A stretch of DNA of 64,000 bases from Escherichia phage T4: sequence record NC_000866.4, one strand, 5' to 3'. Made by a program: the position numbers and the translations under genes. The notes beneath the pieces are model-generated. The model searched no databases. It saw only the letters and a program-made list of their open reading frames with translations, and was not told the origin of the DNA. This document shows, piece after piece, positions 58,722-63,208 of the stretch; position 1 is the stretch's first letter, and every line of letters starts with the position of its first letter.

Positions 58722-58740
58722 GGACCGAAAGGTCCATATT
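58722..58740. terminator. terminator-like hairpin between convergent genes 54 and alt.-3
   Basis: GGACC-GAAA-GGTCC followed by ATATTTTTATTT. Confidence 0.45.
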
Positions 58741-58741
58741 T

Positions 58742-59032
58742 TTATTTACGGAATGAAATGAAAGCAGCAACTGAAGCAACTAAACTGTCTTCAATATAAA
58801 CTTCAATTTTTACAGGAGCTTCTGACTCAAATTTACCTGTTACTACACCCTGAAAAATACTTTCAGTCTGTTCTGGCTTTGAAAAATTTTCAGAAGGAAA
58901 AATTCCGAACTTTTTATCTGTTCCAAAAATTTTGATAAATTCATCGTAAACCGCTTCGTTAAAAGCATTATCAGCAGGAATAACGCCTTCAACTACAAGT
59001 TCTTGACCTAAAAAGCGTAAAGAAGATTTCAT
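58742..59032 (-). CDS. hypothetical protein (T4 alt.-3 position)
   Basis: 96-aa ORF downstream of an early promoter. Confidence 0.55.
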   Translation of the reverse strand: MKSSLRFLGQELVVEGVIPADNAFNEAVYDEFIKIFGTDKKFGIFPSENFSKPEQTESIFQGVVTGKFESEAPVKIEVYIEDSLVASVAAFISFRK

Positions 59033-59057: not shown

Positions 59058-59093
59058 AAGACTACTATAACACAACACGAGGGACTTGTAAAC
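59058..59093 (-). promoter_or_regulatory. early promoter (-35 GTTTAC, -10 TATAGT) upstream of alt.-3
   Basis: minus-strand GTTTAC at 59093..59088 with TATAGT after an 18-nt spacer. Confidence 0.45.
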
Positions 59094-59450
59094 TACATTT
59101 TGAACTTTTTAGTACGCGTAATAGGCATGCGTCGATTTTATACTGTTTCATTGTTTGAAGAGCAGTATCAAAAACAGCATTAATGACACCAATTGGATTT
59201 CCACCCAAGTTTTTAAGCTTAACTAATGATAGTTTCTCATTAACACCTATCATTACGATATGCATCATTTTATCGCCTGGTTTAACGTTTTATTTGTATC
59301 ACCGCCAGAGGTGTATGTACAAAATCTAAATCCAGGAAGTACACTTTCTTCACCGGCTTGAATAGCAAAAATTTGTGGTATTTTATGCTTAGGATTTAAT
59401 GTAACAACCGGCGCCGAAGCGCCGTCAAATAATTCTGTAATAAGTTCCAT
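59065..59450 (-). pseudogene. frameshifted partial duplicate of the alt 5' region (two ORFs of 61 and 67 aa; T4 alt.-1 and alt.-2 positions)
   Basis: ORF 59265..59450 aligns to Alt residues 1-55 and ORF 59065..59268 to Alt residues ~64-130; one nucleotide missing relative to alt between 59268 and 59300 shifts the frame; 28-bp identity with the alt 5' end. Confidence 0.6.
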
Positions 59451-59453
59451 GAT

Positions 59454-61502
59454 TTATCCTTGAACGAACTTGTAAGGCATGTTTGCAATATCTATGCAAG
59501 ACGCAATAATTCCAAGAGATGATTCTACTTTCTGTTTAACATTTGATGAAACAAATGATGCAAAGTCAACTCTATCTTCTATATCACCTGTCATTGTAAC
59601 CAATTCACCAGTTTCCATTAAATGGTCTCCGTCATAGATTACCGATTCGGTGAGTTCTTCTGTGGTCATAACTTCAGCTTGAATAAGCTTGTTGTTAGTT
59701 TTAACTGTTCCATCATTGTAAGATGCATCGGTTATTTTATTAACTTTGACCATTAATCCACGTGGCAAAATGACTTCCATTTCATTTGAAGGCGCTAAAC
59801 TTCCACCGGGTAAAACAACATTGACCTTATCAGCCCCAGTAATAACCCATCCAATTCCAACTAAATTATCGCTAGAATTTACAAGTCCTTCATCAGTTTT
59901 ATCAATAGAAACGCTTAAACGCTTTTCGTCTGGTAAAACACCTATAGATGAATCAGTCATCCAAGTACCAAAAATATTTGGATATAATGATGTTGACACA
60001 AAGTTTCTAAAATAAAAAACTCGATTTTTTACCATTGCTTCGTATATTGAAGGTAACATTCGTTGTGAACGATACAAAGTAATACCTTTTGGTAATCGTT
60101 CACCATTTTTAAAGGCTGAATCTAAATTATCAATAGCTTTTTCTATGTCAGATGCTGTCAAAATACTTGTACGCTCATCTGGATTATATAATCCCAAAAG
60201 AGCATTATTTATGTCTACATATCCTGAACCTACGTATTCACGAATTCCGCGTTTTTGCGCTGGTGTGTATTTAGATGAATCTTTATTTTCGACTATAGGA
60301 TGTAATGACCATCCAGCGGTAAGAGCATATCCACGTAATTCTCTTCGAATAATCTTTGTTTTTATTGCATTCCAAGAATTTTGTACTAACTCATTTGCAG
60401 CATCTTGGTTTAAATGCGAATGTTTGTTAATATTTCTTTCAAACCAAGCACCCTTATATTTTTCTAAAGTATCATCGACGATAGAAGCAATAGTTTCTAA
60501 GGTTTTTATTGAAGTAATAGATTCTTTTCGTAATCTTTCTAAAGCTTTATTTTTTATTTCTGCGTTAATAATGGATTCTTTATCTTCAGGAATTATAGAA
60601 GCTTCTCTGAATGCCATCCCAGCTGTAACACTGCTAAGAGCATTCTCTAGTGCAAATCCTGAAGTAGAAATTACCGTTAATTCATTAGAATCAGAAATTA
60701 AAGGCGCGTCCGCTGGTTTATTTAATTCGGCCGCTGAAGCCTCAAATTTTTGAAACATTGGTGTTTCAAATCTAGAAGATTCCAATGACTGACTTTGCGC
60801 AATTGCTCTACGGGAAATTTTAACTTTAACGATTACAGCTTGGTCAGAACGTTTATCATTTTCTTGCGCAATAGATGCTGCAATTGCCTCATTTTTAGTT
60901 ACTTGAGCCCCAGTATCTTTATTGATATAAACATCACCGACCTTCGATTCAACTTTAGTAAAGAGCTCGGTACTAATTTCCGGAACTCCTGGAATGTCTT
61001 CTAGTGATACATTTTTGCGATGTATAAGAATATATGCATACTTTTTATCGTAATCCCAGAGTTCCTTAAGAAGGACGTATCTACCACCTGAACGACTACG
61101 GATAAGTCTATCAGCAATAACTTGAATTTGTCGAGCTTGGCCAGCAGTTTTAGACTTAAGAATACGGAGCATACAGGCATCAATTTTATACTGGCGCATT
61201 GTTTGCATTGCAACAGTAAAAACTGAATTGATATAATTAATTGGGCTTGGACCAAGACCTTTTAATTTAGCAATTGAACCTTTAGCAGTTAATGTAAAAG
61301 GAACAATATGCATCATTTTATCGCCCATCTTTAAATCACGATTAGTATCACCTCCAGATGTATAGGTACATAAACGAAAGCCTGGTTGTTCAATTGCATC
61401 ATCAACATGAACTGAAAAAATTTGCGGTATTTTCTTCTTTGGATATAAGTTTGTAATTGGAAGAGTAGTATCTTCGTCAAATAATTCTGTAATAAGTTCC
61501 AT
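59454..61502 (-). CDS. alt: ADP-ribosyltransferase Alt (packaged, modifies host RNA polymerase)
   Basis: large ORF (683 codons from the first of two adjacent ATGs at 61505; 682 aa from the second); ADP-ribosyltransferase-like R / STS / ExE elements (YRSQR, FVSTSL, EMEV); N-terminus MELITELF resembles a capsid targeting sequence. Confidence 0.9.
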   Translation of the reverse strand: MELITELFDEDTTLPITNLYPKKKIPQIFSVHVDDAIEQPGFRLCTYTSGGDTNRDLKMGDKMMHIVPFTLTAKGSIAKLKGLGPSPINYINSVFTVAMQTMRQYKIDACMLRILKSKTAGQARQIQVIADRLIRSRSGGRYVLLKELWDYDKKYAYILIHRKNVSLEDIPGVPEISTELFTKVESKVGDVYINKDTGAQVTKNEAIAASIAQENDKRSDQAVIVKVKISRRAIAQSQSLESSRFETPMFQKFEASAAELNKPADAPLISDSNELTVISTSGFALENALSSVTAGMAFREASIIPEDKESIINAEIKNKALERLRKESITSIKTLETIASIVDDTLEKYKGAWFERNINKHSHLNQDAANELVQNSWNAIKTKIIRRELRGYALTAGWSLHPIVENKDSSKYTPAQKRGIREYVGSGYVDINNALLGLYNPDERTSILTASDIEKAIDNLDSAFKNGERLPKGITLYRSQRMLPSIYEAMVKNRVFYFRNFVSTSLYPNIFGTWMTDSSIGVLPDEKRLSVSIDKTDEGLVNSSDNLVGIGWVITGADKVNVVLPGGSLAPSNEMEVILPRGLMVKVNKITDASYNDGTVKTNNKLIQAEVMTTEELTESVIYDGDHLMETGELVTMTGDIEDRVDFASFVSSNVKQKVESSLGIIASCIDIANMPYKFVQG

Positions 61503-61530
61503 CATATCCTCTCTAGTGTTTATTCTATTC

Positions 61531-61538
61531 TATTTATA
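61531..61538 (-). promoter_or_regulatory. late promoter TATAAATA for alt
   Basis: plus-strand TATTTATA = minus-strand TATAAATA 29 nt upstream of the alt start. Confidence 0.6.
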
Positions 61539-61543
61539 AAATT

Positions 61544-61561
61544 AAAGGCCCGAAGGCCTTT
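61544..61561 (-). other. UUCG-tetraloop hairpin upstream of the alt late promoter
   Basis: AAAGGCC-CGAA-GGCCTTT (7-bp stem) immediately after the stop of the upstream small ORF. Confidence 0.45.
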
Positions 61562-61748
61562 AATAATCTATTGGTAAGAGAGTACGATATATTTCAAACT
61601 TTGGACCTTTTTCATAAGCATCAAATGTTTCTGTGAATTTATTATAAGCATATGCATCTATAAATTCAATCATGATTTGTGATACAGAAGTAGAAACATC
61701 TCCACCTTCTTTTTGAGCCACGACAATTGTTTCTAAGTAAGCTTTCAT
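61560..61748 (-). CDS. hypothetical small protein between gene 30 and alt
   Basis: 62-aa ORF, ATGA-coupled to gene 30. Confidence 0.5.
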   Translation of the reverse strand: MKAYLETIVVAQKEGGDVSTSVSQIMIEFIDAYAYNKFTETFDAYEKGPKFEIYRTLLPIDY

Positions 61749-63208
61749 AGACCAGTTACCTCATGAAAATCACCAAATACATCTTCGAATGTATTAGCTT
61801 TAGTTTTATCTTCACGTAAACGAATCGCAATCGGAAGAAATAATTTAACGTAATCAGTGCGGCCATCAGATTTTAACCAACCGTTGCATTCGCACTCTAG
61901 AATTTTTCCAATATAATAATTTTGGTTTTCCATAATGCGAGTACGGTCAAGTTCATGCGATTTTACACCGGCTTTATCTTTTAAGCCTGAACCAGCATTT
62001 ACCTTAATTTTTCCACACTCTGACTCAAGAATAAATCCACCCGCTTTAGTAGGGTCTTTACGGTGAGGATAAATTCCTACAATTTTTAAATCAACATCAA
62101 TTACTTCTTTAAATTTATAAAGATTTTTTGAACGAGCATTTTCCCATAATCCATCGATATTTTTGAGAATAATACCTTCAAGACCTTGGTCAATATACTT
62201 TTTATAAATTACCTTAGCTTCATCTAGGTTATTTACTACCTGGTTTTCAATTAAAATTACTTTATCATATCCAGATGTCATTTGTTCTAGTTTAGAAAAA
62301 CGTACATCATATTTCAAACGAAATGCAGGAAGACTGTATATTTCTACCAACGGGACATAATCCCAGACCTGAAACTTCATGCATTGTGCTTCTTTTTCAG
62401 AAATGGTTCCCTTTAAAGATTTATTGGCGATTCCATTAGAAGCAGTACGTGATTCAGCTACTTCGGCGAATTCTTTAGCTTTACTGTTTTCAGGATAAGC
62501 ATCAAAAAGAAAATCTAGGCCTTCTGGCTCCTTTTTAACTTGCTCATGGTATACCAATTCGCCATCAATCAACACACCTTCTGGATGAATCTGGCGGGCT
62601 TCAGCGGTCATTTTAATTAACTCTTCCTTAAGAAGATCTAATCCTAGATATTCATTACCAGCTCGTGATAAAAGACGAACATCATCTAATTCATCACCTC
62701 TAACTTCAGCAAAACACCGAGCTCCATCAGCTTTTAACTGAGCAAAGGCTGGAAATTTGATATTCTTATTAATGCCTTTTTCATCATAAGAACTTGCGAG
62801 CATTTGAGGTTGTTCAGGAATTAAACCTGGCCAAACTTTGTTTGCAATAGATACTGAAGCACCACATTCAAGGTCTCGCATCATCACTCGACGCAAAACT
62901 TCAACATCATCTTTTTTACCATCGGTGATATATCCAGTTAATTCCTCAATTGCTGCATTTCCAGTCAATTTCCGAGTAGCTAATGTGAATTCAATGAAGT
63001 CAAGCATATCGGTAAGAGTCAACATTCCAAAACTCTGGGTAGCAATACCAGGTTTAGGCCATTTCTTGATATAATACTGTAACCCACGAGAATAAGTCAG
63101 ACGATATACTCGTTTAAGCAATTCATTATCTTTATTCTTTTCAAGAATTGCTTGCTTCTGTTTAGTTGAACCAATAGATGCTATTTCGTTCAGAATTTTA
63201 AGAATCAT
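61745..63208 (-). CDS. 30: ATP-dependent DNA ligase
   Basis: 487-aa ORF with adenylation motif KADGARC (KxDG). Confidence 0.95.
   Translation of the reverse strand: MILKILNEIASIGSTKQKQAILEKNKDNELLKRVYRLTYSRGLQYYIKKWPKPGIATQSFGMLTLTDMLDFIEFTLATRKLTGNAAIEELTGYITDGKKDDVEVLRRVMMRDLECGASVSIANKVWPGLIPEQPQMLASSYDEKGINKNIKFPAFAQLKADGARCFAEVRGDELDDVRLLSRAGNEYLGLDLLKEELIKMTAEARQIHPEGVLIDGELVYHEQVKKEPEGLDFLFDAYPENSKAKEFAEVAESRTASNGIANKSLKGTISEKEAQCMKFQVWDYVPLVEIYSLPAFRLKYDVRFSKLEQMTSGYDKVILIENQVVNNLDEAKVIYKKYIDQGLEGIILKNIDGLWENARSKNLYKFKEVIDVDLKIVGIYPHRKDPTKAGGFILESECGKIKVNAGSGLKDKAGVKSHELDRTRIMENQNYYIGKILECECNGWLKSDGRTDYVKLFLPIAIRLREDKTKANTFEDVFGDFHEVTGL

What the first reader, a model, noticed from the sequence alone, without database searches (positions are those of the whole stretch)
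59065..59450. Partial tandem duplicate of the alt 5' end, inactivated by a one-base frameshift
Immediately downstream of alt there are two short overlapping ORFs that together reproduce the first ~130 residues of Alt (MELITELFD...IPQIF...PGFRxCTYTSGGDTN, then MMHIV...LQTMxQYKIDACxLRxLKS). Aligning the nucleotides shows the copy is one base shorter than alt between the DTN codons and the conserved GATAAAATGATGCAT, which puts the second half in another frame. A 28-bp stretch (CGTCAAATAATTCTGTAATAAGTTCCAT, 59423..59450 and 61475..61502) is identical between copy and original. The copy keeps the putative capsid-targeting N-terminus but has no late promoter of its own that I can see, so it may be a decaying duplicate or a source of a small packaged peptide.
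Basis: seen in the sequence. Interest (0 to 1): 0.6.

Follow-up and report, generated by a model that had tools for sequence, protein, structure and literature searches.

The report
Remnant of lost second alt gene
The two small ORFs downstream of phage T4's alt gene (the annotated ORFs alt.-1 and alt.-2) are what is left of a second, full-length Alt-like ADP-ribosyltransferase gene that most T4 relatives still carry; T4 lost it through a 1.7-kb deletion plus a one-base slip, so this is an ordinary, already recognised pseudogene.

Summary
The window is phage T4 (window coordinate + 64000 = reference coordinate). ORFs 59265-59450 and 59065-59268 (minus strand) are T4 alt.-1 and alt.-2. Together they match the first 116-117 residues of Alt (61% aa, 68% nt), with an exact 28-bp repeat and a one-base frame break.

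The interpretation needs correcting. This is not a partial duplication made in T4. In RB27, T2, RB32, RB68 and about 400 of roughly 500 related phage records, the same position holds an intact 2058-nt (685-aa) Alt-like gene. That gene has an ADP-ribosyltransferase domain, R/STS/ExE motifs and dN/dS of about 0.05. T4 is 95-96% identical to its first 348 nt.

T4 differs in two ways:
- a 1,699-bp deletion between two 9-bp direct repeats (CTAAAAAGT; junction 59104-59112);
- an A5-to-A4 slip (59288-59291).

Other phages with the same deletion carry further independent lesions, including a stop at codon 6 in 45 records and extra one-base deletions. This fits neutral decay. A published T4 proteome did not detect either peptide, although the RNA is present. 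Nolan et al. 2006 already called alt.-1/alt.-2 paralogous duplications of alt.

Verdict: real, explained, already known, low interest.

The parts
59454..61505 (-). alt, the virion-packaged Alt ADP-ribosyltransferase (functional gene; reference for the comparison)
   Evidence: ORF. PF03496 ADPrib_exo_Tox at E = 6e-36, residues 375-615. Annotated as Alt-like RNA polymerase ADP-ribosyltransferase in T4 record OZ209023.
61531..61538 (-). TATAAATA late-promoter motif upstream of alt. It is the only such motif on this strand between 59000 and 61600, so the remnant would be co-transcribed with alt.
   Evidence: No terminator-like site on the minus strand between alt and the remnant.
59104..59450 (-). 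Pseudogene remnant: the first 347 nt (ancestrally 348 nt, codons 1-116) of the second Alt-like gene, called 'alt.-2' in RB-phage annotation
   Evidence: 95.5% identical to RB27 NC_025448 gene RB27_193 nt 1-348. The repaired translation hits PHROG 802 positions 2-119 at E = 8e-50.
59265..59450 (-). ORF alt.-1 (61 aa): ancestral codons 1-54, then 7 out-of-frame codons up to TGA
   Evidence: T4 reference coordinates 123265-123450.
59065..59268 (-). ORF alt.-2 (67 aa): ancestral codons 62-116, then 11 codons read out of frame through the old 3' end, stop codon and alt.-3 promoter. Its ATG overlaps the alt.-1 TGA (ATGA).
   Evidence: T4 reference coordinates 123065-123268.
59423..59450 (-). 28-bp stretch identical to alt 61475-61502 (codons 1-9, MELITELFD, plus the first base of codon 10)
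   Evidence: All 8 degenerate codons are identical, against 53% for same-amino-acid codons elsewhere; P about 0.006.
59288..59291 (-). Frameshift site: an A4 run where all intact orthologues have A5 (AATAAAAACG to AATAAAACG)
   Evidence: The A5 run is invariant in 5 intact orthologues. The A4 allele is in at least 63 phage records.
59104..59112 (-). Deletion junction: the single surviving copy of the 9-bp direct repeat CTAAAAAGT. In the intact gene the repeat sits at nt 340-348 and 2039-2047, so 1,699 bp were lost.
   Evidence: Overlapping BLAST segments. Repeat positions in RB27, T2 and RB68. The same junction is present in all 7 deletion carriers aligned.
59093..59103 (-). Last 8 nt plus the TAG stop of the ancestral gene (...TTC AAA ATG TAG), now out of frame
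59064..59092 (-). Early-type sigma-70 promoter (TTTACA, 17-nt spacer, TG-extended TATAGT) for alt.-3. It is not part of the pseudogene, but ORF alt.-2 reads through it.
   Evidence: The matching position is annotated 'promoter' in phage Lutter. alt.-3 RNA and protein are both classed as early.
58742..59032 (-). alt.-3 (96 aa, DUF5498), the conserved neighbour downstream of the paralogue in both deleted and intact genomes

Best explanation
Window 59065-59450 is a pseudogene. It is the 5' stump of a second, full-length Alt-like ADP-ribosyltransferase gene, a tandem paralogue of alt labelled 'alt.-2' in RB-phage annotations, that was ancestral to T4-like (Tequatrovirus) phages.

In the lineage leading to T4, recombination or replication slippage between two 9-bp direct repeats (CTAAAAAGT) deleted 1,699 bp. 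This is inferred from the sequence. The deletion removed codons 117 onward, including the entire catalytic domain, and left 8 nt plus the stop codon of the old 3' end. A one-base loss in an A5 run (A5 to A4) then split the surviving 116 codons into the two annotated ORFs alt.-1 and alt.-2.

The stump is still transcribed because it sits 3 nt behind alt, with no terminator in between. It is not maintained as coding sequence and most likely has no function.

Shown: the intact orthologue, the two lesions, the shared junction and the extra independent lesions in relatives. Inferred: the slippage or illegitimate-recombination mechanism, the order of events, and the lack of function.
For: 1. Identity and synteny.
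- The window is T4 (99.5-100% to T4 records).
- RB27 has a 685-aa Alt-like gene between alt and alt.-3 at the same place. So do T2, P8, ZN18 and RB68.

2. T4 against RB27.
- One segment of 418 nt is 95.5% identical. It runs from the alt 3' end to CTAAAAAGT and has a single 1-nt gap in the A-run.
- A second segment of 415 nt is 96.1% identical. It starts at a second CTAAAAAGT, 1,699 bp further along in RB27, and runs into alt.-3.
- The two segments overlap by exactly the 9-bp repeat.

3. Frequencies.
- 402 of 496 matching phage records hold at least 80% of the intact gene.
- 92 of 498 hold the T4-type contiguous junction.

4. The intact gene is functional-looking.
- PF03496 at E = 6e-20.
- Arg (LYR), STS and ExE motifs are retained.
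- Five orthologues have no indels and dN/dS of 0.04-0.05.

5. Decay among deletion carriers.
- SG1 keeps A5 but has GAA-to-TAA at codon 6.
- CE1, ACG-C40, SP21535 and ESh30 carry both the frameshift and that stop.
- CE1 has an extra -1 in a T5 run, and F25 an extra -1 at the junction.
- The codon-6 stop allele is in 45 records, and annotators mostly call no gene there.

6. Expression. Alt.-1 and Alt.-2 proteins were not detected although the transcripts were (Wolfram-Schauerte 2022, Table S2).

7. Literature. Nolan et al. 2006 (PMC1524935) list T4 alt.-1 and alt.-2 as paralogous duplications of alt.
Against: - Alt.-1 has a good ribosome-binding site (AAGGA, 7 nt before its ATG). It lies 3 nt after the alt stop, its RNA is present, and in T4 itself the 61-codon ORF is open, so some translation cannot be excluded.
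- Small proteins are easily missed in shotgun proteomics, so 'not detected' is weak evidence.
- The repaired T4 stump still shows a low dN/dS against intact orthologues (0.04-0.06). This is expected if inactivation is recent, and it means relaxed selection is not visible in substitutions alone.
- The order of events is not cleanly resolved. Frameshift and codon-6 stop occur in three combinations among carriers, which needs recombination or recurrent slippage.
- Record counts include GenBank/RefSeq duplicates and near-identical laboratory T4 stocks.
Confidence: 0.93

Rival explanations
1. One reading: T4 duplicated only the first ~390 bp of its own alt gene in tandem, and a single-base frameshift then inactivated that partial copy.
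For: The copy lies directly after alt, starts with a 28-bp exact repeat of the alt start, and aligns with the alt 5' end with a 1-nt gap.
Against: - The copy is only about 68% nt and 61% aa identical to T4 alt, but 95-96% identical to the 5' end of an intact 2058-nt gene in RB27, T2 and others.
- Sequence right after the homology break matches the 3' end and stop codon of that intact gene.
- The breakpoints are a 9-bp direct repeat within the intact gene.
Confidence: 0.02
2. The stump is functional in T4. Alt.-1, and perhaps Alt.-2 by ATGA-coupled re-initiation, is translated from the alt late transcript. It keeps the Alt N-terminal segment (MELITE...) and is either packaged into heads as a small peptide or modulates Alt incorporation.
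For: - AAGGA Shine-Dalgarno sequence and a 3-nt spacing to the alt stop.
- No intervening terminator.
- Transcript detected.
- The N-terminal 9 codons are identical to alt at the nucleotide level.
- MELITE fits the I/L-x-E motif cut by the T4 prohead protease. This comes from my own knowledge and was not tested here.
Against: - A stop at codon 6 in 45 related records, plus other lineage-specific frameshifts, in phages that share the deletion.
- SG1 lacks the frameshift, so the two-ORF layout is not conserved.
- Neither protein was detected in a time-resolved T4 proteome.
- The conserved N-terminus is explained by its role in the intact paralogue.
Confidence: 0.04
3. The frame break is a sequencing error or a programmed ribosomal frameshift site, so the two ORFs are really read as one 127-aa protein.
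For: The break lies in a homopolymer run, a typical place for both sequencing errors and slippage.
Against: - The identical A4 allele is found in at least 63 records, including more than 10 separately deposited T4 records and RB55/RB59.
- The sequence ACA AAT AAA ACG is not an X XXY YYZ slippery heptamer, and A4 is too short for efficient transcriptional slippage (read from the sequence plus general knowledge).
- Even if the two ORFs were fused, the product would lack the whole ART domain.
Confidence: 0.01

Closest known systems
T4 ORFs alt.-1 (P39495, 6.6 kDa) and alt.-2 (P39494, 7.4 kDa) as annotated in the T4 genome and discussed by Nolan et al. 2006 (PMC1524935)
   Same: They are the same object. 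The coordinates match (123265-123450 and 123065-123268 equal the window coordinates + 64000). Nolan et al. already describe them as paralogous duplications of the adjacent alt gene.
   Different: I found no paper in the searched library that spells out the 1,699-bp deletion between 9-bp repeats, the A5-to-A4 slip, or the spread of further lesions among relatives.
Intact 'alt.-2' Alt-like ADP-ribosyltransferase of RB27 (YP_009102398), RB32, RB68, T2 and most Tequatrovirus phages
   Same: It is orthologous, at the same position between alt and alt.-3, and 95-96% nt identical over the first 348 nt.
   Different: It is full length (685 aa), with a PF03496 domain and R/STS/ExE motifs, under purifying selection. 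T4 keeps only codons 1-116, and those are frameshifted.
T4 Alt (gpAlt), the packaged and injected ADP-ribosyltransferase of the R-S-E clade (Iyer et al. 2017, PMC5512222)
   Same: The ancestral gene is a tandem paralogue of alt. The N-terminal ~245 aa are highly similar and the catalytic motifs are shared.
   Different: Overall identity is 45%. The middle region and parts of the ART domain are strongly diverged, which suggests different targets (inference). The T4 remnant has no catalytic domain.
Classical T4 mutational mechanisms: deletions between short direct repeats and Streisinger-type frameshifts in homopolymer runs (rII and lysozyme work; cited from my own knowledge)
   Same: The deletion end points are a perfect 9-bp direct repeat with one copy retained. 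The frameshift is the loss of one A from an A5 run.
   Different: These lesions are natural and fixed, and are shared by about 90 database records. They are not laboratory-selected mutants.
Other partial or full alt duplications in T4-like phages: RB49ORF183c, 44RRORF188c (partial) and 44RRORF187c (full-length) (Nolan et al. 2006)
   Same: The same pattern of tandem alt paralogues that are gained and then degraded next to alt.
   Different: They are in different genera. Their sequences were not examined here.

Membership tests
Alt-like ADP-ribosyltransferase (PHROG 802 / Pfam PF03496, R-S-E ART clade) | Homology to the Alt-type N-terminal region | tested here: met
   Alt.-1 hits PHROG 802 positions 2-60 (E = 4e-18). 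Alt.-2 hits positions 64-120 (E = 8e-20). The repaired 116-aa translation hits positions 2-119 (E = 8e-50).
Alt-like ADP-ribosyltransferase (PHROG 802 / Pfam PF03496, R-S-E ART clade) | ADP-ribosyltransferase catalytic domain (PF03496) | tested here: not met
   Neither T4 ORF has a Pfam hit, whereas T4 Alt (E = 6e-36) and the RB27 orthologue (E = 6e-20) both have one. The domain lies inside the 1,699-bp deletion.
Alt-like ADP-ribosyltransferase (PHROG 802 / Pfam PF03496, R-S-E ART clade) | Catalytic Arg / Ser-Thr-Ser / Glu-x-Glu residues (clade definition per Iyer et al. 2017) | tested here: not met
   LYR, FVSTSL and E-A-E-VILPRG are present in the RB27 paralogue and in Alt. The T4 remnant ends at residue 116, so none of them is present.
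Alt-like ADP-ribosyltransferase (PHROG 802 / Pfam PF03496, R-S-E ART clade) | Uninterrupted reading frame of about 680 codons | tested here: not met
   The A5-to-A4 frameshift at 59288-59291 and the deletion junction at 59104-59112 interrupt it.
Unitary pseudogene (degraded orthologue of a gene intact in relatives) | Intact orthologue at the syntenic position in close relatives | tested here: met
   RB27, T2, P8, ZN18 and RB68 were examined. 402 of 496 records hold at least 80% of the gene.
Unitary pseudogene (degraded orthologue of a gene intact in relatives) | Disabling lesions relative to the intact gene | tested here: met
   A 1,699-bp deletion plus a 1-nt deletion.
Unitary pseudogene (degraded orthologue of a gene intact in relatives) | No purifying selection on the remaining ORFs (independent extra lesions in lineages sharing the primary lesion) | tested here: met
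   Among carriers of the same junction there is a codon-6 TAA in 45 records, plus extra -1 deletions in CE1 and F25, and A5 retained in SG1. Substitution-based dN/dS is uninformative because it still reflects the pre-inactivation history.
Unitary pseudogene (degraded orthologue of a gene intact in relatives) | No protein product | tested here: inconclusive
   The proteins were not detected and the RNA was detected in one published T4 time course (Table S2 of PMC9697503). Small proteins are easily missed.
Programmed -1 ribosomal frameshift site | Slippery heptamer X XXY YYZ in the zero frame at the frame junction | tested here: not met
   The zero-frame sequence is ACA AAT AAA ACG TTA, which has no such heptamer.
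Programmed -1 ribosomal frameshift site | Conservation of the two-frame arrangement among relatives | tested here: not met
   Intact orthologues are in one frame with A5. SG1 has the deletion without the frameshift, and others add upstream stops.
T4 head-packaged proteins processed by the prohead protease (capsid-targeted internal proteins) | N-terminal targeting and cleavage segment that directs incorporation into the prohead core | not testable with these tools
   Alt.-1 keeps MELITELFD, identical to Alt. I found no experimental definition of Alt's targeting signal in the papers read. The I-x-E cleavage motif is recalled from my own knowledge.

The most novel reading that the evidence does not exclude
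In T4 the open 61-codon Alt.-1 ORF may still be translated by coupling to alt. Because it keeps the Alt N-terminal segment, it could be incorporated into proheads, or compete with Alt for incorporation, as a small processed peptide. That would make it a pseudogene stump with a residual or emerging function.

A separate point does not concern the T4 sequence itself. About 80% of Tequatrovirus records, including T2, encode an uncharacterised fourth Alt-like ADP-ribosyltransferase. T4, the model from which the 'three ARTs' picture derives, has lost it.
Probability: 0.05. Interest if true: 0.35.

Novelty: already known. Interest (0 to 1): 0.15.

Why it matters
For T4 itself it matters little. Two 'hypothetical protein' ORFs (alt.-1 and alt.-2) should be read as one pseudogene, and the tail of ORF alt.-2 is really the alt.-3 early promoter.

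The comparison also raises a second point. T4 is the reference for phage ADP-ribosylation biology (Alt, ModA, ModB), but it is in the minority here. Most of its close relatives, including T2, carry a second Alt-like gene that:
- is under strong purifying selection (dN/dS about 0.05),
- keeps the catalytic motifs,
- has a diverged middle region.

Its targets are unstudied as far as I could find. The locus is also a natural example of two classical T4 mutational mechanisms: deletion between short direct repeats and slippage in an A-run.

Tried and rejected
- Reference T4 records NC_000866 and AF158101 are not in the phage collection. I used OZ209023 and the T4 coordinates in a paper supplement instead.
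- Miller et al. 2003 (PMC150520) and Koch et al. 1995 (PMC6134386) are not held. What those papers say about alt.-1/alt.-2 or Alt processing could not be checked.
- A literature search for 'Alt-like / Tequatrovirus / paralog' found nothing. A search for ModA/ModB/Alt/paralog found only the T4 reviews that state 'three' ARTs. I therefore found no published study of the intact second Alt.
- The head-assembly reviews I read gave no definition of an Alt capsid-targeting signal.
- A PDB sequence search with the intact paralogue gave no hit at E <= 0.001.
- Programmed frameshifting and sequencing error were considered and rejected (see rival explanations).
- dN/dS on the 348-nt stump is not informative about relaxed selection. 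It is 0.04-0.06, dominated by changes that predate inactivation. I relied on disabling lesions instead.
- Several fetched loci did not reach the scripting sandbox. I worked around this by passing their sequences through alignments.
- Folding of the 76-nt region around the start of the remnant was not significant overall (z = -1.2). The local UUCG hairpin is nevertheless clear.

Full report
**What the window is**

The region is bacteriophage T4. An 821-nt query around the finding is 99.5% identical to T4 record OZ209023, and a 291-nt core is 100% identical to more than a dozen T4 records. Window coordinate + 64000 equals the T4 reference coordinate, because a published table places alt.-2 at 123065-123268 and alt.-1 at 123265-123450.

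The local gene order on the minus strand is:
- gene 30 (ligase), 61745-63208
- alt.1, 61560-61748
- alt, 59454-61505
- alt.-1, 59265-59450
- alt.-2, 59065-59268
- alt.-3, 58742-59032

After alt.-3 come a bidirectional terminator and genes 54 and 48 on the plus strand.

**Checking the observation**

- The two overlapping ORFs exist.
- The 28-bp string occurs exactly twice, at the stated coordinates, with none expected by chance.
- The alignment with the alt 5' end shows one missing base right after the D-T-N codons, followed by the shared GGCGATAAAATGATGCATAT.
- With that base restored, the 116-codon translation is 61% identical (71/117) to Alt residues 1-117, and the DNA is about 68% identical.
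- Against the PHROG Alt family profile, Alt.-1 covers positions 2-60 and Alt.-2 covers positions 64-120. The repaired product covers 2-119 at E = 8e-50.

Two corrections apply.
- Homology spans about 116-117 residues, not about 130. It stops abruptly at 59104, and identity to alt beyond that point is 15/70, which is random.
- The last 11 codons of ORF alt.-2 are not Alt-like coding sequence.

**What it really is**

Relatives decide the question. Most of the roughly 500 matching phage records matched my query in two separate pieces that split at one point.

In RB27 the space between alt and alt.-3 holds an intact 2058-nt gene. T2, P8, ZN18 and RB68 have the same gene. In all, 402 of 496 records hold at least 80% of it.

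A direct BLAST of T4 against RB27 gives two segments.
- The first runs from the alt 3' end to CTAAAAAGT. It is 95.5% identical, and its only gap is one A missing from an A-run.
- The second starts at another CTAAAAAGT and runs into alt.-3 at 96.1% identity.
- The two segments overlap by exactly that 9-mer.

In the intact gene the 9-mer lies at nt 340-348 and 2039-2047 in RB27, T2 and RB68. T4 has therefore lost 1,699 bp between two direct repeats and kept one repeat copy (window 59104-59112). It retains the last 8 nt plus the TAG stop of the old gene (59093-59103).

The frameshift is AATAAAAACG to AATAAAACG, giving an A4 run at 59288-59291. The A5 run is invariant in the five intact orthologues examined.

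So the remnant is not a partial duplicate of T4's own alt. It is the stump of an old, complete paralogue. It is 95-96% identical to that paralogue but only about 68% identical to alt.

**The gene that was lost**

The intact paralogue is 45% identical to T4 Alt overall. Its first ~245 residues are very similar to Alt, and its middle is diverged. It has a PF03496 ADP-ribosyltransferase domain (E = 6e-20) and keeps the Arg (LYR), STS and ExE motifs of the R-S-E ART clade (clade definition from PMC5512222). Five orthologues have no indels and pairwise dN/dS of 0.04-0.05. It is therefore a maintained and presumably active gene in most relatives, and the T4 state is derived.

**Is the stump under selection?**

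Ninety-two of 498 matching records carry the T4-type junction. All seven that I aligned share exactly the same junction, which points to a single deletion event that has spread.

The stump differs among these carriers.
- SG1 keeps A5 (no frameshift) but has GAA-to-TAA at codon 6.
- CE1, ACG-C40, SP21535 and ESh30 carry both the frameshift and that stop.
- CE1 has lost a further base in a T5 run.
- F25 has lost a base at the junction.

Allele-specific 41-mers find the codon-6 stop in 45 records, and almost all of those records annotate no gene there. The A4 frameshift is in at least 63 records. Counts include GenBank/RefSeq duplicates.

Independent disabling lesions layered on a shared deletion are the signature of neutral decay. 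They argue strongly against a conserved small protein.

The repaired T4 stump still shows a low dN/dS against intact genes (0.04-0.06). This only says that inactivation is recent relative to the divergence of these phages.

The three observed combinations of frameshift and stop (T4 with frameshift only, ACG-C40 with both, SG1 with stop only) require recombination or recurrent slippage. The order of the secondary events is therefore not fully resolved, although both came after the deletion.

**Expression**

The only TATAAATA late-promoter motif on this strand near here is the alt promoter at 61531-61538, and no terminator-like site separates alt from the stump.

The stump has a good AAGGA ribosome-binding site, starts 3 nt after the alt stop, and its two ORFs overlap in an ATGA. 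In the time-resolved T4 transcriptome and proteome of Wolfram-Schauerte et al. 2022 (PMC9697503, Table S2), alt.-1 and alt.-2 transcripts are detected (class 'middle') while the proteins are marked NA, meaning not detected. The neighbour alt.-3 is early in both RNA and protein. This is weak negative evidence, because small proteins are easily missed, but it agrees with the comparative result.

**Mechanism**

The following is my inference. A deletion with a perfect short direct repeat at both ends and one copy retained is the classic product of replication slippage or illegitimate recombination. Loss of one base from a homopolymer run is the classic Streisinger slip. Both mechanisms were originally worked out in T4 (rII, lysozyme). 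That attribution comes from my own knowledge and was not checked in the library.

**Comparison with what is known**

The similarity is already published. Nolan et al. 2006 state that 'T4 ORFs alt.-1 alt.-2' are paralogous duplications of the adjacent alt. They also note partial and full alt duplicates in RB49 and 44RR. The RB-phage GenBank records label the intact gene 'alt.-2'.

I did not find the exact deletion and slip reconstruction, or any study of the intact second Alt, in the searchable library. T4 reviews speak of three ARTs: Alt, ModA and ModB.

I therefore file the finding as already known. It belongs to the Alt family by descent, but it fails every functional criterion: no ART domain, no catalytic residues and no intact frame.

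**Rivals**

- A partial duplication made in T4 is refuted by the orthologue comparison.
- A sequencing error is refuted by the identical allele in many independent T4 resequencings.
- Programmed frameshifting is not supported. There is no slippery heptamer, the arrangement is not conserved, and a fused product would lack the enzyme domain anyway.
- A residual function for Alt.-1 as a packaged peptide cannot be strictly excluded in T4 itself, where the ORF is open. I give it about 4-5%.

**Verdict**

It is a decaying copy, but of a full-length paralogue truncated by a 1.7-kb deletion, with the frameshift as a secondary lesion. Already known; low interest (0.15).

The comparison also shows that T4, the model phage, lacks a fourth Alt-like ADP-ribosyltransferase. 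T2 and about 80% of its close relatives keep that gene under strong purifying selection.

Noticed in passing
window 59409-59424 (-): A perfect C(UUCG)G tetraloop hairpin (CGGCGC-UUCG-GCGCCG) sits at codons 9-14 of the remnant, about 30 nt after the alt stop. It is invariant in five intact alt.-2 orthologues. alt has a weaker GAAGA...TCTTC palindrome at the equivalent place. It could stabilise the alt mRNA 3' end or modulate translation of the paralogue; neither was tested.
   Followed up: partly
window 59423-59450 and 61475-61502; A4 alignment columns 1-59: The 28-nt identity between alt and the remnant covers 8 degenerate codons, all identical, against 53% for same-amino-acid codons elsewhere (P about 0.006). 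The first 59 nt are invariant among five orthologues whose dS elsewhere is 0.1-0.29. This suggests nucleotide-level constraint at the 5' end or a short gene-conversion tract.
   Followed up: partly
window 59064-59092 (-), with the ancestral stop TAG at 59093-59095: An early-type sigma-70 promoter (TTTACA, 17-nt spacer, TG-extended TATAGT) lies directly after the old stop codon. The C-terminal 'SLQVPRVVL' of ORF alt.-2 is just this promoter read as codons. It fits alt.-3 being early in both RNA and protein and is annotated as a promoter in phage Lutter.
   Followed up: partly
window 59454-61505 (-) compared with RB27 alt (L003:3098-5191): T4 Alt and RB27 Alt are only 72% identical. The N-terminal ~245 aa and C-terminal ~100 aa are nearly identical, while the middle, including much of the ART domain, is strongly diverged. 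alt itself looks mosaic or diversifying among close relatives.
   Followed up: no
loci L004-L009 (deletion carriers SG1, F25, CE1, ACG-C40, SP21535, ESh30), alignment A2: Among phages sharing the deletion, the frameshift and the codon-6 stop occur in three combinations: T4 has the frameshift only, ACG-C40 has both, and SG1 has the stop only. With the ancestral state this makes a four-gamete pattern, implying recombination between phages or recurrent or reverting slippage in the A-run.
   Followed up: partly
window 58722-58735 (both strands): A GGACC-NNNN-GGTCC hairpin between the convergent alt.-3 and gene 54 looks like a bidirectional terminator. It is annotated as a terminator in phages e11/2 and Lutter. 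RB27 has a 2-nt longer stem and a different loop.
   Followed up: no
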